Notes under the pieces: generated by a model
What the model was told of the DNA's origin: nothing
Database searches by the model: none
The model's input: the letters and a program-made list of their open reading frames with translations, nothing else
Source: an uncultured Gammaproteobacteria bacterium
Lineage (GTDB): Bacteria; Pseudomonadota; Gammaproteobacteria; Steroidobacterales; Steroidobacteraceae
Assembly: GCA_963777725.1 (NCBI GenBank)
Contig: CAVZRR010000009.1
Coordinates: 13,050 to 77,049, forward strand
DNA: 64,000 bases
Direction: 5' to 3'
Position numbers and translations under genes: made by a program
Shown: positions 3,185-15,164 of the stretch, piece by piece
Layout: every line of letters starts with the position of its first letter
Position numbering within the stretch: position 1 is the first letter of the stretch

Positions 3185-3334
3185 ATGTTGTGGACAATCG
3201 CTGTCGTATTGGCCGTGCTCTGGCTGCTGGGGCTCGTCAGCTCCTACACCATGGGCGGATTCATTCACATCCTGCTGGTCCTCGCGATCGTCGTGGTCCT
3301 GATCAATGTGATCCAGGGCCGACGGGCCTTGTGA
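3185..3334 (+). CDS. lmo0937-family small membrane protein (49 aa)
   Basis: Below the ORF-track size cut-off. My own translation is MLWTIAVVLAVLWLLGLVSSYTMGGFIHILLVLAIVVVLINVIQGRRAL, which matches the stereotyped two-helix pattern of this family. Confidence 0.7.
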   Translation: MLWTIAVVLAVLWLLGLVSSYTMGGFIHILLVLAIVVVLINVIQGRRAL

Positions 3335-5157: not shown

Positions 5158-6276
5158 ATGACGCAGCGACTCGTCTTCCTGGTGCCGGGATTCTTCGGTT
5201 TCACTTCGATCGGCGCGGTGAGCTATTTCGAGGACGTGCAGCAAGCGCTCACCCGCGCGCTCCGACGACGCGGCATCGCGGCCCGCATCGTGATCTGCAC
5301 GACGCAACCGACGGCGTCGATCCCACGGCGCGCGGATGCGCTGCGCCGGCAGGTGATCGCCAGTGGCGGCCTCAAGGCGCAGGAACTGCATTTCATCGGC
5401 CACTCGACGGGCGGGCTCGACGTGCGCATGCTGCTGACTCCCGGCGTGAAGATCGCCGGAGGCGGCACGGAGGAGCGCATCGCGGCGTTGACCCGGACGG
5501 CCATCTCGGTGAATACGCCGCACCACGGCACACCGCTCGCGAATCATTTCGTGACCATCCAGGGCCAGACGCTGCTGCTGGTCATCAGCGCGCTCGCGAC
5601 GTCCGGGCAAGGCCGGCGCGCGATCGTCGCTGCGGCGAAAGCGATCGCGATGGTCGCGCGGCTCGACGACTGCCTCGGGCGCAACGAGGGGCCACTCGAC
5701 CGCCTTGCTGCCGGTGTGCTGCGCCGGATCCGGTTCGATCGCCGCGACCCCGTCTGGAAATACCTCGGCGAGATCGAACGGGACCAGGGGGCGGTGCTGC
5801 AACTCACGCCCGAAGGGATCGAGCTCTTCGACGCGGCGGTGACGGATCGTGCGGGAATCGACTACGGTTGCGTCGTGTCCGGCGTGCCCAAGCCTCGCGA
5901 GCAATTCCGGGTCAAGGAATTCATGGATCCGGAATATCTGGCAATGCGCTCGCTCTTCCGGCTGCTGCACGCGCTGACGGCCAAGCCGCATCCGCGCTAT
6001 CCCTACCCGAAACCTGCCACCCGGACGCAACGCTTGCTCGATCGCGGGCTCGGCTTCAAGGCGACTCCGGGCATCAGCGACGGCATCGTACCGACGCTGA
6101 GCCAGCTGCACGGCCGGGTGCTGCACGTCGTGCGCGCCGACCACCTCGACGTGGTGGGGCACTACACCCTGGCCGGCGGCAGCTCCGGAAACTGGTTGCC
6201 GTCGGGCGCTGGCTTCACCCGCGAAGCCTTCGACGCCACCTGGGACGCGGTCGCCGCAGCCATCGCGAGGAAGTGA
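5158..6276 (+). CDS. Lipase/esterase-family alpha/beta hydrolase
   Basis: VFLVPGFFGF N-terminus and nucleophile elbow FIGHSTGG. TPHHGTPLA follows it. Confidence 0.8.
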   Translation: MTQRLVFLVPGFFGFTSIGAVSYFEDVQQALTRALRRRGIAARIVICTTQPTASIPRRADALRRQVIASGGLKAQELHFIGHSTGGLDVRMLLTPGVKIAGGGTEERIAALTRTAISVNTPHHGTPLANHFVTIQGQTLLLVISALATSGQGRRAIVAAAKAIAMVARLDDCLGRNEGPLDRLAAGVLRRIRFDRRDPVWKYLGEIERDQGAVLQLTPEGIELFDAAVTDRAGIDYGCVVSGVPKPREQFRVKEFMDPEYLAMRSLFRLLHALTAKPHPRYPYPKPATRTQRLLDRGLGFKATPGISDGIVPTLSQLHGRVLHVVRADHLDVVGHYTLAGGSSGNWLPSGAGFTREAFDATWDAVAAAIARK

Positions 6277-7553
6277 CTGCCGCGGCCACGCGCCTTTGCG
6301 CGCAGCAGGGCCAGGTCCGCCCTCTTCAGCAGCGTCTCGGCATCCGTGCCATCGGCGGGATACACGGCGATCCCCATGCTGGCCGTGACGTACAGGTTCT
6401 CGCCGGCGATGCGATGCGGCTCGGCGATCGCGGCAAGCAGCTTGTCTGCGCTGAACGCCGCATCTTCGGGACAGGCGACTTCCGACAGCAGTATGACGAA
6501 TTCATCGCCGCCCTGACGGCACACGGTGTCCGAGTCGCGCACGCACGACACCAACCGCTTGGCGACGGACTGCAACATGGCATCGCCGGCTGAGTGACCC
6601 AGCGAGTCGTTGATGCGCTTGAAACGGTCGAGGTCCATGAAGAGGACTGCAAACGAACGCCCGTGGCGACGCGAAGTCGCGATTGCGCAGGCCAGTCGGT
6701 CGTTCAGGAGCAGCCGGTTCGGCAAGCCCGTGAGGACGTCGTGTTGCGCCAGCTCGGACATCCGCAGCGACATCTCGCGCGCGGCGCCGACGTCGTGAAA
6801 GACGATCACTGCGCCAGTGACCCGCCCGTGCCGATCGTGGATCGGAGCCGCGGTGTCCTCGATCGCGGATTCGTGGCCGTCGCGTCGAACCAGCAGGCAG
6901 TTCGCGCTGAGTCCGACCGTGGTGTCCTGCCGCATGGCCAACGCCAACGGGTCCAGCGCGGGTTCCCGGCTCTCCGCATCGATGATCCGCACCACGTCCT
7001 GCAGTGGCCGACCAGCGGCCTCCGACGCGGCCCAGCCGGTCATTTCCTCGGCCACCGCATTGAGGTAGGTGACGTTGCCTGCAACGTCGGTGCTGACCAC
7101 GGCATCGCCGATCGAGTTGAGCGTGACCAGGGCTTGCTCGGAGTCCCGCAGCAGGGACTCGACATGCGCCGCGCGCTCGAGCATGGTGTTCAGGGCCTTC
7201 GGCAGCGAGTAATGGTCGAGGTGCTCCAGCAGCAGGTAGTCCTGCGCGCCGCGCTGCACCGCCGTAATGGCAACCGGCTCCTCGCATTTGCGGCTCAGCA
7301 CCAGGACGGGAATGCGCGGCGCCACACGCAGCAGCGTCTCGAGGGTTTCGATCCCCTGGCTGTCCGGCAGGGACAGGTCCGCCACGACGGCAGAGATCGC
7401 ACCCTCGCCGCTGGCGGCCAGCCGCTTGATTCCGACCTGGCATCGGCTCGCCGACTCGACGATGAAGCGGCCGTCCTGCGACTCGGCGAGTGCCGCCTTG
7501 ATGGCGCGAACTTCTCCAGGTCGCGCCAGCACGAGCAGTCTGCTGCGGGACAT
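6162..7553 (-). CDS. Response-regulator receiver + PAS + GGDEF diguanylate cyclase
   Basis: REC-like N-terminus ([16 protein letters not shown]), PAS ([21 protein letters not shown]) and GGDEF ([16 protein letters not shown] ... [11 protein letters not shown]). ATG at 7553 with GGAGGAG upstream. The 3' end overlaps the convergent lipase gene by 115 nt. Confidence 0.85.
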
Positions 7554-7761
7554 GCGATTCTCCTCCACTACGACTAACCTACCTGCGCAGCATGCCGTGC
7601 GGCGTCGTCACCGTCGGTGCGGTGACGGACATTGCACAGCGACAGCGTTCGGGCGCAGGCTGTGTTGCGTGCGCCACCGAACGGAACTTTCCGCGTCGGT
7701 CGCTATGCTCAGATGGCGGGATGCTTTTCCCTGTCGTCCTGACGAGAGATCCAACGTGCAA

Positions 7762-8463
7762 ATGCCGACGCGGGCCCCAGCCGAGAATCGCCTGCTGGCT
7801 GCGCTGCCCGGCCGGGACCGGCGGCACCTGCTCGATGGCTGCGCGGAGGTGGACCTGACGCTTTCCGACGTCATCTACGAGCCGGGCCAGAGGATTCGCC
7901 AGGTCTTCTTCCCGACCGACGGTTTCATCTCGCTGATCACCCCGATCAACGGTCACGATCGCCTCGAGGTCGGTCTCGTCGGCGACGAGGGCATGCTGGG
8001 CAGCTCGCTGGTGCTCGGCGTCAACGTGGCCCCGACACTCGCGCTGGTACAGGGCGCCGGCGTGGCGTGGCAGATGGACGCCGAGCCCTTCCGACGCGAA
8101 CTCGAGCAGAGCGACGCACTGCGGCGCGGACTGAAGCGCTACCTGTACGTCGTGATGCGCCAGCTCGCACAGACAGCCGCCTGCACGCGATTCCACGTCG
8201 TGGAGGCAAGGTTGGCCCGCTGGCTGCTGATGACCCAGGACCGGGCGCATTCCGACACGTTCCACGTCACGCACGAGTTCCTCGCCTACATGCTCGGTGT
8301 ACGGCGGGCCGGCGTGACCCGGGCGGCCAGCTCGCTGCAGTCGCGCAAGCTGATCCGCTACAGCCGCGGCGACATCAGCATCCTGGACCGGAGCGGACTC
8401 GAGGCTGCGGCCTGCAGTTGCTACGCCGCCGACCGCGAGACGTACTCGAGCTTCTTGCACTGA
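7762..8463 (+). CDS. Crp/Fnr-family transcriptional regulator (paralog 1)
   Basis: cNMP-binding-like barrel ([12 protein letters not shown] ... [11 protein letters not shown]) and C-terminal HTH ([40 protein letters not shown]). Internal ATG of track ORF 7267..8463. Confidence 0.8.
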
Positions 8464-8550
8464 GCCGCGAACGCGCGGGTCCATCACCGCGACACAAAAA
8501 ACCCGCGCAGCGTGAACTGCGCGGGTTTCGAGCGGCTTCCCGCCCGGCAA

Positions 8551-9384
8551 TTACAGCGCGGCGAGCGCCGGATTGCTGATGATGACCTCGACCCGACGGT
8601 TCTGCTGGCGACCGGCAGCGGATTCATTGCTGGCGACCGGAGCGCCCTCGCCGGCCCCCATGGCGGTGACCCTGGCAGCATCGACGCCCTGGCTGACCAG
8701 GTACGAACGAACCGAGTCAGCACGCCGCTGCGACAGCCCCAGGTTGTAGTCGTCGCCGCCGACGCTGTCCGTGTGTCCCTCGATGGCGACCGTGCGGCTG
8801 GGATACTTCGCCAGGAACGTCACGAGCTGGCCGAGGTTGCTCGTCGCACCAGGCTTCAGCTCGGCGCGGCCACTCTCGAACAGCACGTCGCCGAGCGTCA
8901 GGACCAGGCCGCGATCCGTCGGCTTGGCCTTCAGCGCATCAATCTGGCGCTGCAGCTCCGCATTCTCTTCGTTTGCGTCGGCCGTGGCCTCGCGGGCCAC
9001 GTCGACTTCACGTGTCCGGGAATCCAGCTGAGCCGAGGCACGCTCGGCGGTGATTTTCACGCGCTGGTCTTCCAGGTAGCGGGTCTGGGCCTGCGCGCTC
9101 GCGATCTCGACCTTGCGATCCGCGATGTAGACCCGATGTTCCCCGAGGGCACGATCGGCTTCGGGCTGTTCGGCGGTGCGCACGGCGGCATCTGCCTCCT
9201 TGATCGCAACCGGCGCGCGGCTGGCGAGGTTCGAATCGGACTGCAGCTGCGTCAACTTGGTGCGCACTTCCGAGGCGCCTTCCGGGACCGCGGGGGCTGC
9301 TGCGCAGCCCGCAAGCAGCACGGCGGCCACGGCGGCGGCGATCAGGGTCCGGCCAACGGCCACGCTGTTGTCGATGGTGTTCAT
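8551..9384 (-). CDS. OmpA-family lipoprotein with a DUF4398-like N-terminal coiled coil
   Basis: Lipobox LLAGC. OmpA-like C-terminus: FESGRAELKPGATSNLGQLVTFLAKYPSRTVAIEGHTDSVGGDDYNLGLSQRRADSV. Confidence 0.85.
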   Translation of the reverse strand: MNTIDNSVAVGRTLIAAAVAAVLLAGCAAAPAVPEGASEVRTKLTQLQSDSNLASRAPVAIKEADAAVRTAEQPEADRALGEHRVYIADRKVEIASAQAQTRYLEDQRVKITAERASAQLDSRTREVDVAREATADANEENAELQRQIDALKAKPTDRGLVLTLGDVLFESGRAELKPGATSNLGQLVTFLAKYPSRTVAIEGHTDSVGGDDYNLGLSQRRADSVRSYLVSQGVDAARVTAMGAGEGAPVASNESAAGRQQNRRVEVIISNPALAAL

Positions 9385-9782
9385 TTCGCGTCTCCAGATT
9401 TGCGCGCCATCTCGTCGATCAGCGTGCCGGTGCTGCTCTGCATTTCATCGTTGACGATCCGCGCCTTGACGAACGCCGTCCGGGCGGACGCCAGTTCCGC
9501 CTCGACTCGCGATTCGCCAGCCAGACGCTCGGCGGCGACCATTTCCTCCGCCTGCACGGCGGTGTTGGCGGACGCGAGCTTGGTGCGTGCTGCACTCAGC
9601 TCGCCCGCGGCGTGACGGCTTGCATCCGCTCGCTCGGCGCTGGTGATGGCCTGCTGCGCTGCCTGCAGCTGCGCAGTCGGCGCAGGCGGCGTCGATGCGC
9701 ATGCCGACAGCAGGAGGACGCCGGCGAGGCCGGTTGCCGCGCGCAGGCTCGAGCCCGGGCGTAGTCGCGATATTGAGGTCAT
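9381..9782 (-). CDS. DUF4398-like lipoprotein
   Basis: MTSISRLRPG...LLLSAC lipobox, then a helical Ala/Gln-rich body. The stop overlaps the start of the OmpA gene. Confidence 0.7.
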   Translation of the reverse strand: MTSISRLRPGSSLRAATGLAGVLLLSACASTPPAPTAQLQAAQQAITSAERADASRHAAGELSAARTKLASANTAVQAEEMVAAERLAGESRVEAELASARTAFVKARIVNDEMQSSTGTLIDEMARKSGDAK

Positions 9783-9978
9783 TTGAACTCTCTGCGTGAT
9801 GAAGGTGGCCCACCGACGGTGCCGGCAGCCGACCAGGAGCATGAGTGTGCGCGGTCGCGCGCGGTAACTCTGTTCGCAAGCGAACATTCGTGCGGTGAAC
9901 TCGAGTCGGTACGCTCCCGCACCGACGACGAGATTGCGAGTACACTGGATGCGTCCCTTCTTCTCGCGGAGGGCCGCC

Positions 9979-10728
9979 ATGGCTCGCGCACCCGCGTCGC
10001 TCGCGCATCACGTCCACAGTCCCGAGCAGAACCTTCTGCTGGCGGCCTTCACGCCCGAGGAGCGCGCGCGGGTTTACCCGCATTTGCAACTCGTCCCGCT
10101 ACCGCTCGGCAAGTCGCTGTATGAGTCGGGCAAGGCCCTGCGCCATGTCTATTTTCCGGCCGACTCCATCGTGTCGCTGCTTTACGTGCTCGAGAACGGC
10201 GCGTCGGCAGAAATCTCGGTCGTCGGCAATGAAGGCGTCATCGGCATCGCACTGTTCATGGGCGGCGAGACCACGCCGAGTCGTGCAGTCGTGCAAAGTG
10301 CCGGCCATGCGTACCGGCTCGTCGGCCAACGGCTCAAGGACGAGTTCCACCGCAATGGCGGCGTGCAAGTGCGGCTGCTGCGGTACACGCAGGCCCTGAT
10401 CACGCAGATGGCGCAGACCGCGGTGTGCAACCGTCATCACTCGGTGGACCAGCAGCTCTGTCGCTGGCTGTTGCTGTCGCTCGATCGCCTGTCGTCCAAC
10501 AAGCTGGTCATGACCCAGGAACTGATCGCCAACATGCTCGGCGTCCGCCGTGAAGGCGTCACCGAGGCCGCCGGCAAGCTCCAGAAGCTCGGGGCCATCG
10601 AATACAGCCGCGGCAGGATCACCGTGCTGGACCGGCCGATGGTCGAACAGCTGAGTTGCGAGTGCTACGCCGCGGTCAAGAAGGAATCCGATCGGATTGC
10701 GAGCCTGATGGTCATTCCCGGCGCTTGA
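9979..10728 (+). CDS. Crp/Fnr-family transcriptional regulator (paralog 2)
   Basis: VYFPADSIVSLLY ... VSVVGNEGVIG and HTH TQELIANMLGVRREGVTEAAGKLQKLGAIEYSRGRITVLD. Colinear with paralog 1, including the C-terminal SC-x-CYAA motif. Confidence 0.8.
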   Translation: MARAPASLAHHVHSPEQNLLLAAFTPEERARVYPHLQLVPLPLGKSLYESGKALRHVYFPADSIVSLLYVLENGASAEISVVGNEGVIGIALFMGGETTPSRAVVQSAGHAYRLVGQRLKDEFHRNGGVQVRLLRYTQALITQMAQTAVCNRHHSVDQQLCRWLLLSLDRLSSNKLVMTQELIANMLGVRREGVTEAAGKLQKLGAIEYSRGRITVLDRPMVEQLSCECYAAVKKESDRIASLMVIPGA

Positions 10729-10831
10729 TCTGACGCTGGGCTTCACGCCCGCCGCACGTCCTTGTGCCTGATCACGTCCCCTGTGCACGGCCGCGTCCGT
10801 GTGGCCTGTATTCAACGCCCGCTCTACAAGC

Positions 10832-11722
10832 TCACTGCTCGCAGAACAGCACTCCGTCTCGATTGCCGGCGCGGTAGCTACCACACTGCCTCGGCGAAAG
10901 GCCCGTCCGGTTCCAGTTACCGTTCATGGTCTGGCACGTGGCCGTCAGGTTACCGTTCGAGTCCGTCGAAACGTCACGACAGGACCGGCTGAAGGAACCT
11001 TCCCAGCGGTACGCCACATTGCTGCCACCGCTCGTCGCCTCGCAGAACAGCGTGCCGTTGCGATTCCCGGCGCGATAGGTGCCGCATTCACGGTGCGACA
11101 GGCTCGTCCGGCGCCACGCGCCATTCGAGGACTGGCAGGTCGCCCGCAGCGTTCCGGACGAATCGACCGCGACATCGCGGCAGGAATCCAGGAACGAACC
11201 GGACCATCGGCCAACGCTGCCGCTGCCGGTACTTGCACCCGTGCCCGTCGACTCGCAGAACAGGTTCCCGTTGCGGTTGCCGGCCCGTTGGCCGGGACAA
11301 TTCTGTGCCTTCAGGTTGCTGCGCTTGTAGGTTCCGTTGTCCTTGCGACAGGTGGCCTGCAGCTTACCGTGCTTGTCGACCGTGGCGTCGCGACAGGAAG
11401 TCAGGAACGATCCGCTCCACTGACCCACGTTCCCGTTGTTGCCGACGCCGGCATCATCGGACTCGCAGAACAACCTCCCGTTGCGATTTCCGAACGCCCT
11501 GCAGGACCCGATCACCGCCGAGGCGAACTCATACTTGCCTCCGTCGCGCCGGCACTGGGCGTACAGCGTGCCGTTCTGCACGTACGGTCGCTCGCAGCTC
11601 TGGCGCCACGATCCATCCGGGAGACCGTCATTGGCAGCCCATGCCATCTGCGGCAATGCGGCCACGCCGGCGGCAATGCCGATCGTCGCAAGACCGCCGA
11701 ACAATGCTCGTGTGATTCCCAT
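10832..11722 (-). CDS. Secreted protein with four tandem CVNH (cyanovirin-N homology)-like modules
   Basis: Signal peptide MGITRALFGGLATIGIAAGVAALPQMAWA. Four repeats of the form W-GSF-x2-SCRD-x5-G-x-L-x-ATC-x4-G-x-W-x2-T-x-L-x4-C-x5-GNRNG-x-LFCE. GGAGAG lies upstream of the ATG at 11722. Confidence 0.65.
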   Translation of the reverse strand: MGITRALFGGLATIGIAAGVAALPQMAWAANDGLPDGSWRQSCERPYVQNGTLYAQCRRDGGKYEFASAVIGSCRAFGNRNGRLFCESDDAGVGNNGNVGQWSGSFLTSCRDATVDKHGKLQATCRKDNGTYKRSNLKAQNCPGQRAGNRNGNLFCESTGTGASTGSGSVGRWSGSFLDSCRDVAVDSSGTLRATCQSSNGAWRRTSLSHRECGTYRAGNRNGTLFCEATSGGSNVAYRWEGSFSRSCRDVSTDSNGNLTATCQTMNGNWNRTGLSPRQCGSYRAGNRDGVLFCEQ

Positions 11723-11950
11723 GGCTCTCTCCTCTCGTGCGCGCGATGGCCGGGCCAGCAGCGGATCCACTGGCACCCTTCACGGTTGGAAGCTAGACCC
11801 GCACGCCCACCGGGTCTGTACGTCACCGTACGCAAGCCCCCTCGACGCACGGTCGGGAAGAGCGTCGCGGGCCGAATTCCTGCTAGTGTTGCAAGGTGGC
11901 CCCGACACTCCATCGTGACGCATGAGCGCAAACGCCGAGGTCGCCGCAAC

Positions 11951-14317
11951 GTGACTGACGGGGCATCCGACCGCGTCCGGCCCGGCCCACGGGTCGGCGA
12001 GGCGCTCTATGGCGGATTGCTGTTCGCCGGCGGGGTGGCCGCGCTCGCGCTCGCGCTGCCGGGCAGCGCCGCCGCCGCGCAGGACTGGCCTCTCCTGCTG
12101 TTCTTCCTGCTGTTCGGCTTGTTCACGATCTCGATCGGGTACGCACATCCGGTCTTCGGCTACGTGTCGTTCGACCGCGTGGCGCAGGTTTCGAGCATCC
12201 TGGTACTCGGCCCGGTCGATGCCGCGTGGATCAACGGGCTGGCCTCCCTCATCTACCCCTGGCACCGGCTGCGCTACGGGGTACCGCTGCGCACGGTCGC
12301 ACTCGCGGCAGTGACGAATGCCGGCTTGATGAGCCTGATGGTGCTGGCGTCCGGTTTGATGTATGTCGCGATCGGCGGTCCGGTACCGCTCGGCCATCTC
12401 GGGCTGCAGTCGTTCGGCGCGGTCGTGCTGATGCTGGTCGCCATGCAGGTCATCAACGAAGCGGGAATGATGGGACTGGTGCGGATGCGCGGACAGCCGG
12501 CCCGCGACTCGCTGAGCCTGTTCGATACCGCCACCGAACTGACGGCGGGGCTGATTGCGGTGCTGGTCGCAATCGTCTGGAACCGGATGGAGATCGAGGT
12601 CTTCCTGCTGCTGCTCGCCGTGCTGGTCGCGGGCATGCTGGCGCTGAAGCGATTCGCAGAAATGCGACTCCGGCTCGAGCGGCTGGTCGAGGAACGAACC
12701 GAGGCGCTGCAGGAGAAGACGCTGCAGCTCGAGCGCCTCGCAGCACGGGATACGCTGACGGGACTCTACAACCGCCGCCATGCGGACGAATTCCTTCTGC
12801 GCGAAATTGCACGAGCCCGCCGCGAGGGGCACCCGATCGGCGTCGCACTGGCCGACATCGACCACTTCAAGCGGATCAACGACGACCACTCGCACGGCAT
12901 CGGCGATCGCGTGCTGGAGCGGGTGGCGCGGATTTTCACCGAGCGGGTACGCGGCGCCGACCTCGTGGCGCGCTATGGCGGCGAGGAATTCCTGTTCTGC
13001 TTCATCGGTATCGACGAGACAGATCTGGTCCGGCGCTGCGAGGAACTCCGCCTTGCGCTCGAGCGCGAGGACTGGACGACGCTGTCGCCAGGACTCAGCG
13101 TGACGATGAGCATCGGCGTGGCCACCTGCAACGGTGAGTCGCAGGCCTCGGCGCTGCTCGATCGCGCCGACACCTGCCTTTACGAAGCCAAGCGACGCGG
13201 CCGCAACCGGGTCGTCTACCGAGCAGGGCCTGCGCGCCGGCGCCTTCTAGCGTCGTCCGGCAAGGCCTCGCGCGGCCAGCGCTCAGCGCCCCTGCATCAG
13301 CTCGATGAATCCCGGGTCTTCGCGCAGCGAATCGAGATCGGGGTCGTGCTTCATCCAGCCGAAGTTCTCGTATCCGCCGGACATCGCCTGCCGCAGCGTG
13401 TCGACGGCGCGGCCGGTCTCCCCGAGCCTCGCGTACAGGCAGGCGCAGTTGTAGAGCATCATCGGGTCGCCGGGGCTCAACTCCAGCGCGGCGGCGCCCT
13501 CGCGAATCGCCTCGTCCTTGCGGCCGCGCTCCGCGAGCGTGATCGCGTAGTACATCCGTGCACGCGAATCGTCCGGATTCTGCAGCAGGTAGTTCGGCAG
13601 CAGCGCGAGCAGCTGCTCGGATGCGACGTCTGCCTCGGCCTTGCGCCCGAGGCCCTCGCAGGTCTGCGCGAGGTCGGCATAGGCCGCGTAGAAGCCCGGC
13701 TTGATGTCGATGACGCGGCGGAACAGGTCGAGCGACTCCTCGAGTTCGCCATTCGAGAAATGGATGCGCCCGAGCGTCCAGTACGCGATGAAATCGTCGG
13801 GATCGAGCTCGATGGCCTTGCGGCTCGATGCGCTGGCCTCGTCGAACTTGCCCCAGATGAAATAGGACAGCCCCATCGCGGCGTAGGCCTCCGGGAGGTT
13901 GCTGTCGTACATCAGCGCCTTGAAGCTGAGCTCCTGCGCCTTGTCCCGGTACCGCTCTTCGCGCGAGAACCACTGGTACATCTGCCCGTAGGCGCTCGAG
14001 CAACCCGCGTAAGCGGCCGCGTAGCGCGGATCGAGCTCGATGGCTTTCTCGAACAGCTGGATCGCGTACTCGACGCTGCGCTTCGTCAGCCGGTACAGGT
14101 AGTCCTGGCCTCGCAGGTAGAGGTCGTAGGCCTGCGCGTTGACGGTCTGCCGCTTCGTCAGCGAGACCTTCTCGGAGAAGCTGAGCTTGAGCCTGCAGCG
14201 CCTCGACGATCTGCTGCGCGACCTGCTCCTGGATGTCGAAGATGTCGTCGAGCTTGCCCTTGTAGGTGTTGCCCCACAGCTGGCGATTGGTCGCGACGTC
14301 GACGAGCTGCACCGTGA
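11951..14317 (+). CDS. Membrane-anchored GGDEF diguanylate cyclase. Only about 11951-13215 looks like real coding; the formal ORF has no stop until 14317.
   Basis: GTG at 11951. Multi-TM N-terminus, coiled coil, then RDTLTGLYNRRH ... DIDHFKRINDDHSHGIGD ... RYGGEEFLF ... YEAKRRGRNRVV. After that the frame reads antisense through the TIR/TPR gene with shadow-type composition. Confidence 0.6.
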   Translation: MTDGASDRVRPGPRVGEALYGGLLFAGGVAALALALPGSAAAAQDWPLLLFFLLFGLFTISIGYAHPVFGYVSFDRVAQVSSILVLGPVDAAWINGLASLIYPWHRLRYGVPLRTVALAAVTNAGLMSLMVLASGLMYVAIGGPVPLGHLGLQSFGAVVLMLVAMQVINEAGMMGLVRMRGQPARDSLSLFDTATELTAGLIAVLVAIVWNRMEIEVFLLLLAVLVAGMLALKRFAEMRLRLERLVEERTEALQEKTLQLERLAARDTLTGLYNRRHADEFLLREIARARREGHPIGVALADIDHFKRINDDHSHGIGDRVLERVARIFTERVRGADLVARYGGEEFLFCFIGIDETDLVRRCEELRLALEREDWTTLSPGLSVTMSIGVATCNGESQASALLDRADTCLYEAKRRGRNRVVYRAGPARRRLLASSGKASRGQRSAPLHQLDESRVFAQRIEIGVVLHPAEVLVSAGHRLPQRVDGAAGLPEPRVQAGAVVEHHRVAGAQLQRGGALANRLVLAAALRERDRVVHPCTRIVRILQQVVRQQREQLLGCDVCLGLAPEALAGLREVGIGRVEARLDVDDAAEQVERLLEFAIREMDAPERPVRDEIVGIELDGLAARCAGLVELAPDEIGQPHRGVGLREVAVVHQRLEAELLRLVPVPLFAREPLVHLPVGARATRVSGRVARIELDGFLEQLDRVLDAALRQPVQVVLASQVEVVGLRVDGLPLRQRDLLGEAELEPAAPRRSAARPAPGCRRCRRACPCRCCPTAGDWSRRRRAAP

Positions 14318-15089
14318 TGCGGACCGACTCGTGGAAACGGCGCACGCTGCCGCCGATGATGTAGCGGGCGCCGAGCTCGTTGCCGATGGCCCGGATGTCC
14401 TGCTTGCGCCCCTTGAACTGCATCGATGCCCAGCGCGAGACGAGTTCGATCTCGCTGACCAGCGACAGGCGGGCGATCAGCTCCTCGGTGAGCCCGTCGC
14501 TGAAGTAATCGGTTTCCTGGTCGGGGCTGATGTTGTCGAAGGGCAGCACCGCGAGTGCGCCCTGCTCGATCAGTGGGTCGGTACCTTGCGCAACAGTCGT
14601 GGCTGCGGAGACGGCCCGCGGGTCGTCGGCGGATGCGCCCGCCTTGTGATGCTGCGGCGGCGGGGCGATCGTGACACCGACCCGCTCGAGCGACCGCAGG
14701 ATCGTCCTCAGGTTCGTGTCCGCGTCGCCCTGGAAGTACTCGATGTGCTGGATGCCGGCGAGCGGATACCGGAGGCTGGACGGAATCTGCGTCGGCTCGA
14801 GGTGCACGGGCAGGATGTGACCCTTGCGCTCGCTGGCCAGCACGACTTCCTTGGCGACGTTGTGCGAGCGGACGGCCGACTCGGTGACCACCAGCAGCAG
14901 CACCTTGGCGTTCTCGAGCGCCTTGACGATCTCCTCGCCCCACAGCGTGGCGCCGTCGATGCCGCTCTGGTCGATCCAGAGCGACACGCCCGCGCTGCGG
15001 AGCTTGGCCGCGAGGTCGAGGACGCGATCCTTGTCCTCGCGGGAGTAGCTGATGAAGACGTCGGCCGGCTCTGCCAAGGGGGGATCCAT
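13283..15089 (-). pseudogene. TIR + TolB-like + TPR protein gene interrupted by a 1-nt frameshift near 14190-14195
   Basis: Frame A (15089 down to ~14195): MDPPLAEPADVFISYSREDKDRVLDLAAKLRSAGVSLWIDQ... (TIR), then AVLPFDNISPDQETDYFSDGLTEELIARLS... (TolB-N-like). Frame B, from my own translation: LKLSFSEKVSLTKRQTVNAQAYDLYLRGQDYLYRL...AIELDPRYAAAYAG, continuing into track ORF 13283..13981 (TPRs). The junction is CTGCAG-G-CTCAAG. Confidence 0.75.
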
Positions 15090-15164
15090 CCAGGCGCGGC
15101 CCAACGCCGCGAGCCGTCAAGGCTAGCTCATCGCCGCCGGCCTGAGAAGGCGCGGCTCCCGGGC

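What the first reader, a model, noticed from the sequence alone, without database searches (positions are those of the whole stretch)
10832..11722. Secreted protein made of four cyanovirin-N-homology-like modules
**Seen in sequence**
- After a signal peptide, four 67-71-aa repeats follow, of the form W(S/E)GSF..SCRD....D..G.L.ATC....G.W.R..L....C.....GNRNG.LFCE.
- At DNA level the motif TCGCAGAACA recurs at 10839, 11039, 11253 and 11463.
- Each module aligns with a half-domain of cyanovirin-N as I remember it: F..TC.N....G..L...C....G.Y..S.I.L.....N.DG.L.
- Each module also carries an extra Cys pair not present in cyanovirin-N.

**Established knowledge**
- CVNH proteins are high-mannose-binding lectins, known mainly from cyanobacteria, filamentous ascomycetes and ferns.

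**Inference**
- A periplasmic or secreted four-module version in a high-GC proteobacterium would be an unusual lectin.
- Its position between a Crp-like regulator and a GGDEF gene hints at surface or biofilm-related control.
Basis: partly seen in the sequence, partly recalled or inferred. Interest (0 to 1): 0.6.

Follow-up and report, generated by a model that had tools for sequence, protein, structure and literature searches.

The report
Exported lectin of stand-alone half-cyanovirin modules
This gene encodes an exported, disulfide-rich relative of the sugar-binding protein cyanovirin-N, and its four repeats seem to fold as separate beads rather than as the classical intertwined pairs; the family is common in metagenomes, unstudied, and here sits behind a conserved Crp/Fnr-type promoter.

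Summary
Window 10832-11722 (-) is an intact 296-aa gene with a Shine-Dalgarno site, a Sec-type signal peptide (AWA|AN) and four modules of 53-56 aa. Each module has 4 Cys, and Gly/Ser linkers join them. Pfam CVNH matches at E 5e-21, and each module aligns to one sequence repeat (half) of cyanovirin-N. Each also carries a 2-4-residue insertion and an extra Cys pair.

- **Module number:** complete homologues carry 3, 4, 5, 6 or 7 modules (18/17/18/4/2) in an A-B-(C)n layout. A profile search finds 3456 protein clusters, with up to 17 matched modules in one protein. Some distant relatives have a single module fused to an MVL mannan-binding repeat.
- **Structure models:** AlphaFold2 models one module alone with confidence (pLDDT 91, pTM 0.69). 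In the full-length model the modules do not pack like cyanovirin-N.
- **Best reading:** a multivalent envelope or secreted lectin built of autonomous single-repeat CVNH modules.
- **Promoter:** a palindrome GTACG-N4-CGTAC lies 87-110 nt upstream of the start codon in 15 related loci. A conserved TAnnnT box follows 21-23 nt after it, which fits a class II Crp/Fnr promoter. A similar site precedes the adjacent Crp-like gene.

Sugar binding, disulfide pattern and regulation are inferred, not shown. I class it as a new variant of a known kind, of moderate interest.

The parts
10832..11722 (-). CDS of the 296-aa exported CVNH-module protein (stop codon at 10832-10834)
   Evidence: ORF list, translation, Pfam PF08881 at E 5.4e-21, and 98 homologues that all carry PF08881.
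11636..11722 (-). Signal peptide, residues 1-29 (MGITRALFGGLATIGIAAGVAALPQMAWA|AN)
   Evidence: Read from the sequence. The N-terminal pattern is conserved in homologues. There is no lipobox. No predictor was run.
11462..11620 (-). Module A (residues 35-87): the cap type, PDGSWRQSC...AFGNRNGRLFCE, with 4 Cys
   Evidence: Module profile match at 78.9 bits. It is always the first module in homologues.
11252..11419 (-). Module B (residues 102-157): WSGSF..SCRD..VDKHGKLQATCRKDNGTYKRSNL...AGNRNGNLFCE
   Evidence: Module profile match at 88.4 bits. It is the second module in 55 of 59 complete homologues.
11039..11206 (-). Module C1 (residues 173-228)
   Evidence: Module profile match at 89.9 bits. 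It aligns to CV-N residues 49-101 with a 4-residue insertion.
10838..11005 (-). Module C2 (residues 240-295); modelled alone with pLDDT 91 and pTM 0.69
11420..11461 (-). Linker 1 (residues 88-101), rich in Gly, Asn and Asp
   Evidence: pLDDT below 50 in the full-length model. In homologues, linkers are 7-18 aa with 25% Gly and 23% Ser.
11207..11251 (-). Linker 2 (residues 158-172), rich in Ser, Thr and Gly
11006..11038 (-). Linker 3 (residues 229-239)
11729..11732 (-). Shine-Dalgarno GGAG, 6 nt before the ATG
   Evidence: Read from the sequence. The GGAGAG block is invariant in the 4-locus upstream alignment.
11818..11831 (.). Perfect palindrome GTACGGTGACGTAC, 95 nt upstream of the ATG; candidate Crp/Fnr-type operator
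   Evidence: - It is one of only two perfect copies in the 3.36-Mb genome.
- A copy with at most 1 mismatch lies 87-110 nt upstream of the start codon in 14 other loci, whose flanks have diverged.
11790..11795 (-). Candidate -10 box TAGCTT (TAnnnT), 22 nt after the palindrome, which puts the palindrome centre near -41
   Evidence: A TAnnnT box is conserved at this spacing (21-23 nt) in the aligned loci. The transcription start is not known. The sigma-70 consensus scan found nothing.
9976..10728 (+). Crp/Fnr-family regulator (249 aa from the ATG at 9976), convergent with the lectin gene; candidate regulator (inferred)
   Evidence: - Pfam HTH_Crp_2 at 1.2e-13 and cNMP_binding.
- Orthologues of 249 aa sit next to the lectin gene in L008 and L009.
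9909..9922 (.). One-mismatch copy of the palindrome (GTACGCTCCCGCAC), 54 nt upstream of the Crp-like gene's probable start
   Evidence: Equivalent sites precede the orthologous Crp genes in L009 (perfect copy), L008 and L013.
11951..13210 (+). Membrane-bound GGDEF (diguanylate cyclase) gene, divergent from the lectin gene; context only
   Evidence: Pfam GGDEF at 1e-39. GGDEF genes lie within 6 kb of the lectin gene in 9 of the 38 loci scanned. The start and the 3' end are not settled.

Best explanation
The gene encodes a Sec-exported, soluble, disulfide-stapled protein made of four tandem modules in the order A-B-C-C.

**Shown**
- Each module is homologous to ONE sequence repeat (half) of a cyanovirin-N-homology (CVNH) domain.
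- The module, not the classical two-repeat domain, is the unit that varies in number within the family.

**Inferred from models and comparative data**
- Each module folds on its own into a single lobe: a three-stranded sheet covered by its own beta-hairpin. In cyanovirin-N the hairpin instead crosses over to the other repeat.
- Two features would allow this. One is a 2-4-residue insertion in the sheet-to-hairpin connector. The other is an extra disulfide (C3-C4) that ties the connector to the end of the hairpin.
- The modules would hang on flexible Gly/Ser linkers like beads on a string.

**Inferred from homology, conservation and fusions**
- Each bead would carry one glycan-binding site, built from the three segments that form a site in cyanovirin-N. 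These are the N-terminal W.GSF..S, the loop after C2, and the GNR(D/N)G hairpin turn.
- The protein would therefore act as a tetravalent lectin in the periplasm, on the cell surface or in the matrix. It would cross-link or coat mannose-type glycans, whether the cell's own polysaccharide or that of neighbours.

**Inferred from a conserved cis-element**
- Transcription starts from a class II-type promoter. Its Crp/Fnr-family operator, GTACG-N4-CGTAC, is probably read by the adjacent Crp-like regulator, which has a similar site in its own promoter.
For: **Homology**
- PF08881 scores 75.7 bits, E 5.4e-21.
- phmmer against PDB finds only CVNH proteins apart from one marginal nanobody match (E 0.19). 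The alignment places one module on one CV-N repeat.
- Foldseek top 25 matches are all CVNH.

**The module is the unit**
- Complete homologues have 3, 4, 5, 6 or 7 modules (18/17/18/4/2), so odd numbers are as common as even.
- The architecture is A-B-(C)n with n = 1-5.
- The profile search finds 3456 clusters, with up to 17 matched modules in one protein.
- The Pfam model matches overlapping module pairs 1-2, 2-3 and 3-4 equally well.
- Single-module proteins exist, fused to an MVL mannan-binding repeat.

**Autonomy of the module**
- One module with a 69-module alignment gives pLDDT 91.0 and pTM 0.69. All five models reach at least 85.9, and the hairpin scores 90-94.
- Against CV-N repeats it gives TMq about 0.55 but rmsd 9-10 A over 53 columns. 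By my arithmetic, the sheet superposes while the hairpin sits about 18 A from its CV-N position.
- The full-length model has pTM 0.30, linkers below 50 pLDDT and modules at 75-85. Against CV-N its TMt is about 0.35 with rmsd 14-18 A.
- Linkers are 7-18 aa and rich in Gly and Ser.
- Trp at module position 1 goes with Ala at hairpin position 46, and Pro with Ile/Val/Phe. This holds within the same module in 158 of 160 cases at 80 junctions between module types. Either neighbour pairing would break it in 79 of 80.

**Binding site**
- The CV-N sites are residues 41-44, 50-56 and 74-78, and 1-7, 22-26 and 92-95 (PMC11952781).
- The homologous module segments hold many of the best-conserved non-Cys positions: W, G and S at the start, the G after C2, and the hairpin G/N/G.

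**Regulation**
- The palindrome lies 87-110 nt upstream in 15 loci, with TAnnnT 21-23 nt after it.
- Only 2 perfect copies exist in the genome.
- Similar sites precede the adjacent Crp-like genes.
Against: - No experiment supports any of this. Coordinates and PAE of the models could not be inspected, so 'hairpin on its own sheet' is deduced from scores and was not seen directly.
- AlphaFold2 may fold an isolated repeat back on itself as an artefact.
- The direct-coupling analysis favours self-pairing only weakly. The summed top-10 couplings were 14.0 against 12.8, 11.9 and 11.6, and self beat 'next' in 29 of 40 bootstraps.
- The W1/A46 rule may reflect one or a few evolutionary events.
- The NCBIfam mannose-binding-lectin model is just missed, at 79.6 against 80 bits.
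- The binding-site residues differ in identity from CV-N (GNRD against ENVD/ANID), so the ligand is unknown.
- The palindrome is not over-represented genome-wide: 62 sites with at most 1 mismatch against 94 in the reversed control. No regulon could be defined, and the transcription start is unknown.
- Gene neighbourhood is variable outside two clades.
Confidence: 0.6

Rival explanations
1. This is a canonical tandem CVNH protein. Modules 1+2 and 3+4 each form a classical intertwined two-lobed CVNH domain, as the automatic annotation implies, and the linkers are merely long hinges.
For: - The Pfam model is matched over 89-92 of its 102 positions by pairs of modules.
- This particular protein has an even number of modules.
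- The A and B modules form a conserved N-terminal pair in the family.
- Engineered CV-N tandems with 10-residue linkers fold, and 3s3z is the best PDB match.
Against: - Homologues with 3, 5 and 7 modules are as common as those with 4 and 6, and single-module proteins exist.
- The Pfam model matches pairs 1-2, 2-3 and 3-4 equally, so no register is preferred.
- The full-length model shows no CV-N-like packing: TMt 0.35, rmsd 14-18 A, pTM 0.30.
- The isolated module is modelled with high confidence.
Confidence: 0.13
2. The modules swap serially or between molecules. The hairpin of module i covers the sheet of module i+1 (a chain or ring of lobes), or modules of different chains pair up, giving oligomers or a matrix-forming polymer.
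For: - CV-N itself readily forms domain-swapped dimers, and the best full-length Foldseek matches are swapped crystal forms (3s3z, 1lom, 3ezm, 3lhc, 4j4c).
- In the coupling analysis the 'next' pairing scored slightly above the 'far' control, 12.8 against 11.6.
- Odd module numbers are compatible with intermolecular pairing.
Against: - The element joining hairpin i to sheet i+1 is the variable, low-complexity linker. The full-length model predicts no contact across it.
- The W1/A46 rule holds within modules and is violated across junctions.
- The isolated module is modelled as compact, with pTM 0.69.
Confidence: 0.12
3. The fold is CVNH-like but the protein is not a lectin. The disulfide-stapled beads would bind another ligand (protein, peptidoglycan, metal) or serve as a stress-induced periplasmic or structural protein.
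For: - Binding-site residues differ from those of CV-N.
- The fungal SsCVNH is reported to act as an effector that targets a plant peroxidase, a protein (title and abstract of PMC11064801, listed).
- Neighbours in several loci are small stress-type genes: CsbD, BON, DUF3309, DUF5670, SOD, ferritin and OmpA/DUF4398.
Against: - To my knowledge, the CVNH proteins whose structures appear in the PDB matches (CV-N, microvirin, Cyt-CVNH, Dm-CVNH and the fungal and fern CVNHs) were all characterised as sugar binders.
- The segments homologous to the sugar site hold many of the best-conserved non-Cys positions.
- Distant relatives fuse the module to an MVL mannan-binding repeat.
Confidence: 0.15

Closest known systems
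Cyanovirin-N (Nostoc ellipsosporum) and the CVNH family, Pfam PF08881 (PDB 2EZM/3EZM; Cyt-CVNH 5K79; Dm-CVNH; fungal and fern CVNHs 2JZJ, 2JZK, 2JZL)
   Same: - Each module aligns over its whole length with one CV-N sequence repeat.
- It has the same secondary structure: a helical turn, three strands, then a hairpin.
- The Cys pair equivalent to C8-C22 / C58-C73 is present.
- It has the N-x-(D/N)-G-x-L hairpin motif, and the segments that form the sugar sites are conserved.
   Different: - CV-N is one domain of exactly two repeats whose hairpins are exchanged. Here the repeat itself is the unit, in 1-17 copies, with odd numbers common.
- The modules are separated by Gly/Ser linkers of 7-18 aa.
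- Each module has a 2-4-residue insertion in the connector and a second Cys pair.
- Models give separate beads.
- The host is a gammaproteobacterium, and the protein has a Sec signal peptide.
Microvirin / mannan-binding lectin MVN of Microcystis (PDB 2Y1S; NCBIfam NF052356)
   Same: - It is a bacterial CVNH lectin and the best NCBIfam match.
- From the literature as I recall it (Kehr et al. 2006), MVN binds a cell-surface glycan and mediates cell-cell attachment. That is the kind of role proposed here.
   Different: - The score is 79.6 against a cut-off of 80, so it is not a member by NCBI's rule.
- MVN is a single two-repeat domain, cytoplasmically made, without the extra Cys pair or the bead architecture.
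Engineered tandem cyanovirin CVN2L10 (PDB 3S3Z)
   Same: It is the best sequence match in the PDB (E 8.7e-6) and consists of repeats joined by a flexible Gly/Ser linker to raise valency.
   Different: It is man-made. Its linker joins complete two-repeat domains, not single repeats, and it crystallises as a domain-swapped form.
MVL, the Microcystis viridis lectin (Pfam PF12151, 'Mannan-binding protein')
   Same: Distant relatives of the module (L053-L055) are fused to one MVL repeat, which links the module to mannan-binding proteins.
   Different: The fold is unrelated, and it is not present in the window's protein.

Membership tests
CVNH (Pfam PF08881) | Profile match above the curated gathering score | tested here: met
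   75.7 bits against a cut-off of 24.5, E 5.4e-21, in 4 stretches. The six-frame genome search gives three overlapping pair matches of 35-40 bits.
CVNH (Pfam PF08881) | Sequence repeat of about 50 aa with the conserved Cys pair (C8-C22 type) and the N-x-D/N-G-x-L hairpin motif | tested here: met
   HMMER alignment to CV-N and a module consensus aligned with both CV-N repeats. C1 and C2 sit at the CV-N Cys columns. The bonding itself was not tested.
CVNH (Pfam PF08881) | One domain equals two repeats intertwined into a two-lobed pseudo-symmetric fold, with the hairpin of each repeat on the sheet of the other | tested here: not met
   This was tested in silico only.
- Homologues have odd module numbers and single-module relatives exist.
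- The full-length model against CV-N gives TMt 0.35 and rmsd 14-18 A.
- A single module is modelled as compact, with its hairpin displaced relative to CV-N: TMq 0.55, rmsd 9-10 A.

I therefore file it as a homologue and variant, not as a canonical CVNH domain protein.
CVNH (Pfam PF08881) | Binding of alpha-1,2-linked mannose oligosaccharides | not testable with these tools
   Only the conservation of the homologous site segments and the MVL fusions in relatives bear on it.
NCBIfam NF052356 mannose-binding lectin (equivalog) | Whole-protein score of at least 80 bits | tested here: not met
   79.6 bits.
Sec-exported soluble protein | N-terminal signal peptide with an A-x-A cleavage site, no lipobox and no membrane anchor | tested here: met
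   - Read from the sequence and conserved in 23 homologues. No signal-peptide predictor was available.
- The 16 invariant Cys fit oxidative folding outside the cytoplasm.
Class II Crp/Fnr-dependent promoter | A 5-4-5 palindromic dimer site centred near -41.5, with a -10 box at the matching distance | tested here: inconclusive
   The palindrome and the TAnnnT box 21-23 nt downstream are conserved in 15 loci.

The most novel reading that the evidence does not exclude
- **Fold:** the four-Cys module is a natural, self-contained, unswapped single-lobe form of the cyanovirin fold. It would be either the ancestral state from which the intertwined two-repeat CVNH domain arose by duplication and hairpin exchange, or a reversal of that swap.
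- **Family:** it would define a very large unstudied family of bead-like lectin domains: at least 3456 clusters at 50% identity, with 1-17 beads per protein.
- **Regulation:** in Steroidobacteraceae it would be a dedicated target of a Crp/Fnr-type regulator with a previously undescribed operator (GTACG-N4-CGTAC), linked to c-di-GMP signalling and matrix formation.
Probability: 0.35. Interest if true: 0.6.

Novelty: new variant of a known kind. Interest (0 to 1): 0.42.

Why it matters
- **Fold evolution.** Cyanovirin-N is a textbook case of a pseudo-symmetric, domain-swapping fold and a long-studied antiviral lectin scaffold. A natural family in which the half-repeat is a stable bead would bear on how the intertwined fold evolved.
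- **Engineering.** It would also give protein engineers a minimal unit of about 56 residues, disulfide-locked, with one binding site, that nature already strings into arrays of variable valency.
- **Microbial ecology.** It would add a widespread class of exported lectins in soil and water Proteobacteria. These may take part in aggregation, matrix building, or binding to fungal or protist glycans.
- **Regulation.** The conserved promoter gives a ready handle on a Crp/Fnr-family regulator of unknown signal.

None of this changes the basic classification. It is a relative of a known lectin family, and public databases already label it as such.

Tried and rejected
1. **Consensus scan.** The sigma-70 promoter and intrinsic terminator scan of 10650-12050 found nothing. 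The promoter proposal rests on cross-locus conservation instead.
2. **Direct-coupling analysis.** I ran it on 996 modules, comparing sheet-hairpin pairing within a module with pairing to the next, previous or a far module.
   - The first run was dominated by invariant columns.
   - After masking them, self-pairing scored highest, but only weakly: 14.0 against 12.8, 11.9 and 11.6, and self beat 'next' in 29 of 40 bootstraps.
   - I treat this as inconclusive.
3. **Regulon search in the window's genome.**
   - Palindrome plus -10 box occurs only at the lectin promoter, and the reversed control also gave 1 hit.
   - Sites with at most 1 mismatch number 62 against 94 in the reversed control.
   - No regulon could be defined.
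4. **Literature.** Three full-text searches found no paper on proteobacterial or multi-module single-repeat CVNH proteins. The library lacks most subscription papers.
6. **Other Cys-rich families.** fn2, HscB_4_cys and alpha-amylase C gave only sub-threshold chance matches (E 0.09-3) and were rejected.
7. **Operon link.** An operon with the neighbours is rejected. The gene is convergent with the Crp-like gene and divergent from the GGDEF gene, and its neighbours vary among loci.
Full report
**1. What is in the sequence**

The minus strand carries an open frame at 10832..11776. The ATG at 11722 is preceded by GGAG at 11729-11732, six bases upstream, and gives a 296-aa protein. I take this ATG as the start for two reasons:
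- the homologues begin at the same place;
- the proposed promoter would put the upstream GTG (11776) at the very start of the transcript.

Residues 1-29 have the form of a Sec signal peptide: Arg5, a hydrophobic core, and AWA|AN. There is no lipobox. This was judged by eye.

Four modules follow, at residues 35-87, 102-157, 173-228 and 240-295. Each has four Cys. Linkers of 11-15 residues, rich in Gly, Ser, Asn and Thr, separate them. Pairwise identity between modules is 40-64%.

It is the antisense of the codons for the conserved LFCE.

**2. Homology**

- Pfam CVNH (PF08881) matches at 75.7 bits against a cut-off of 24.5, E 5.4e-21.
- NCBIfam's 'mannose-binding lectin' equivalog is just missed, at 79.6 against 80 bits.
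- Against all PDB sequences, every match but one marginal nanobody hit (E 0.19) is a CVNH protein. The best is the engineered tandem CVN2L10 at E 8.7e-6.

The HMMER alignment places one module on one CV-N sequence repeat:
- W173 aligns with W49, 'GSF..SC' with 'SNFIETC', and 'GNRNGTLFCE' with 'ANIDGTLKYE';
- four extra residues, which contain C3, sit between strand 3 and the hairpin;
- C4 stands where CV-N has Y100/W49.

A consensus of 271 inner modules aligned with both CV-N repeats gives the same picture. First modules have a 2-residue insertion instead of 4.

**3. The family and its unit**

The 98 closest homologues all carry PF08881. They come almost entirely from metagenomes and MAGs. The named ones are Steroidobacteraceae or 'uncultured Gammaproteobacteria'.

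Among proteins that are complete and clean, the module number is 3, 4, 5, 6 or 7 in 18, 17, 18, 4 and 2 proteins. The architecture is A-B-(C)n with n = 1-5. A conserved cap module and a conserved Lys-rich second module are followed by a variable number of C modules. Linkers are 7-18 aa (median 11), with 25% Gly and 23% Ser.

A profile of the module searched against 1.84 billion representative proteins finds:
- 3456 proteins at E <= 1e-3 and 1297 at E <= 1e-10;
- up to 17 matched modules in one protein.

In a sample of 400 genomes of the class, 7 have the module. Three of these (L053-L055) encode a single module followed by one MVL 'mannan-binding protein' repeat, PF12151.

The Pfam model matches module pairs 1-2, 2-3 and 3-4 of the window's protein about equally, so no pairing register is preferred. 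The unit of this family is therefore the single repeat, not the two-repeat CVNH domain.

The gene is patchy. There is one copy in this 3.36-Mb genome, and 3 of 101 genomes of the family have it.

**4. Structure models**

*Full length, 24-sequence alignment:*
- pLDDT is 70 and pTM 0.30. Modules score 75-85 and all three linkers score below 50.
- Each module has a helical turn, three strands and a hairpin.
- The 25 best Foldseek PDB matches are all CVNH (E about 1e-6), but with TMt about 0.35 and rmsd 14-18 A over about 121 columns.
- So only about one sheet superposes, and the neighbouring module is not where the second CV-N repeat would be.

*One module alone (residues 236-296, alignment of 69 diverse modules):*
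- pLDDT is 91.0 and pTM 0.69. The hairpin scores 90-94, and all five models reach at least 85.9.
- Again the 25 best matches are CVNH, aligned over the whole repeat (52-56 columns). TMq is only 0.54-0.57 and rmsd 9-10 A.
- By my arithmetic this fits about 38 residues (the sheet) superposed, with the hairpin about 18 A from its place in a CV-N repeat.
- That is what one expects if the hairpin folds back on its own sheet instead of crossing to the other lobe.

I could not inspect coordinates or PAE, so this step is inference.

*Two sequence-based checks:*
- Direct couplings between sheet and hairpin columns are strongest when both come from the same module, but only weakly so.
- Trp at module position 1 goes with Ala at hairpin position 46, and Pro with Ile/Val/Phe. 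At 80 junctions between module types the rule holds within the module in 158 of 160 cases. Either neighbour pairing would violate it in 79 of 80. This suggests a compensating core contact within a module, but it may rest on few evolutionary events.

**5. Function**

In CV-N each sugar site is built from a hairpin turn (41-44 / 92-95), the N-terminal segment of a repeat (50-56 / 1-7) and the loop after the second Cys (74-78 / 22-26) (PMC11952781). The homologous module segments (W.GSF..S, C2 plus the following residues up to N-G, and GNR(D/N)G) hold many of the best-conserved non-Cys positions.

With the MVL fusions in distant relatives and the flexible multivalent design, the most likely function is glycan binding, with four sites per chain. 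The ligand is unknown.

The protein has no anchor, so it is either periplasmic or released. Two-module relatives in Sphingosinicella and Methylomicrobium have lipoprotein signal peptides, which points to the envelope.

The precedent of microvirin in Microcystis cell-cell attachment is from my own knowledge of the literature. It was not checked here.

**6. Regulation and context**

| Gene | Coordinates | Strand |
|---|---|---|
| REC-PAS-GGDEF | 6165-7553 | - |
| Crp-like 1 | 7762-8460 | + |
| OmpA | 8551-9384 | - |
| DUF4398 | 9384-9701 | - |
| Crp-like 2 | 9976-10728 | + |
| lectin | 10832-11722 | - |
| membrane GGDEF | about 11951-13210 | + |

- The Crp-DUF4398-OmpA block is syntenic in L009. 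Of that block, the Crp-like gene is intact next to the lectin gene in L008; only a fragment of the OmpA gene was found there.
- A second clade has GH94-SOD-GGDEF-cupin-DUF5670-(Crp)-DUF3309-lectin.
- Other loci differ.
- GGDEF genes lie within 6 kb in 9 of the 38 loci scanned. This genome has 18 GGDEF domains in 3.36 Mb. The link is suggestive, but the loci are not independent.

Aligning the upstream regions of four loci shows that almost only two blocks are conserved: the Shine-Dalgarno site and 'GTACGGTGACGTACAGAC'. The core of the second block is a 5-4-5 palindrome, GTACG-N4-CGTAC.
- A copy with at most one mismatch lies 87-110 nt upstream of the start codon in the window and in 14 other loci from both clades.
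- 'AGACC' follows it directly, and a TAnnnT box follows 21-23 nt after its end.
- That spacing puts the centre of the palindrome near -41 relative to a start site about 7 nt after the box. This is the geometry of class II Crp/Fnr-activated promoters (established knowledge).
- Only two perfect copies exist in the whole genome.
- A one-mismatch copy lies 54 nt before the probable start of the adjacent Crp-like gene. Equivalent sites precede the orthologous genes in L009 (perfect), L008 and L013.
- The motif is not over-represented genome-wide, so no regulon could be drawn.

I infer that a Crp/Fnr-family dimer controls the lectin gene, and that this dimer is probably the neighbour. No binding or transcript data exist.

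**7. Comparison and verdict**

It differs from every characterised CVNH protein in four ways:
- the half-repeat is the building block;
- it carries a second Cys pair and a longer connector;
- linkers join the modules in variable, often odd, numbers;
- the models give separate beads.

Public records already call relatives 'CVNH domain-containing protein', and I found no paper on them. Earlier notes of this scan reached the same reading for unrelated genomes. They are leads, not independent evidence.

I class it as a new variant of a known kind, of moderate interest. It is confidently a CVNH relative (about 0.97 on my own estimate). It is fairly likely built of autonomous modules (about 0.65) and likely a lectin (about 0.6). 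The Crp/Fnr control is a reasonable but untested inference (about 0.5).

Noticed in passing
window 13095-15104 (-): A TIR-domain ORF (Pfam TIR_2, E 8.5e-22) turns into Arg/Ala-rich nonsense after about residue 330. Its TPR part continues in another frame (stop-to-stop 13283-14476, many TPR families). This looks like one TIR-TPR gene split by a frameshift near 14100-14470, either a pseudogene or an assembly indel.
   Followed up: partly
window 11951-14317 (+): The membrane GGDEF gene's domain ends near 13210, but its reading frame stays open to 14317. For about 1.1 kb it runs antisense to the TIR/TPR gene. Either the stop is missing (an indel?) or this is a high-GC open antisense frame. Not resolved.
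   Followed up: no
L053, L054, L055 (other gammaproteobacterial genomes, low GC): Small exported proteins combine ONE CVNH-half module (a 6-Cys variant) with one MVL 'mannan-binding protein' repeat (PF12151, E 2e-15 and 1e-5). Their CVNH scores fall below Pfam's cut-off because only half the model is matched.
   Followed up: partly
P0100 (1168 aa), P0102 (1119 aa), P0149 (1232 aa): These giant relatives have 12-17 matched modules. P0100 also has PT repeats. P0102 gets no Pfam hit at all despite 17 module matches.
   Followed up: no
L029, L031-L034 (Sphingosinicella spp., cultured strains); L036 (Methylomicrobium MAG): These two-module versions of about 152-173 aa have lipoprotein-type signal peptides (LLLAAC, LLNGC). 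They are cultured, tractable sources of the module.
   Followed up: no
L046 and L047 (second Steroidobacteraceae-type clade): The lectin gene lies downstream of a very large GH94/glycoamylase gene resembling a cyclic beta-1,2-glucan synthase, followed by SOD, GGDEF, cupin, DUF5670, (Crp-like) and DUF3309. In L046 the GH94 and SOD genes are split into pieces, as expected from indel errors in a long-read MAG.
   Followed up: no
L048 3205-3261 and L049 8382-8435: Further one-mismatch copies of the GTACG-N4-CGTAC palindrome occur in pairs, in L048 just upstream of a superoxide dismutase gene (start at 3295). This hints at a small stress-type regulon.
   Followed up: no
window 6165-10728: Two paralogous Crp/Fnr-like regulators (7762-8460 and 9976-10728) flank an OmpA/DUF4398 pair and adjoin a REC-PAS-GGDEF gene. 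The same block is present in L009, and L008 has the two Crp-like genes and the REC-PAS-GGDEF gene.
   Followed up: partly
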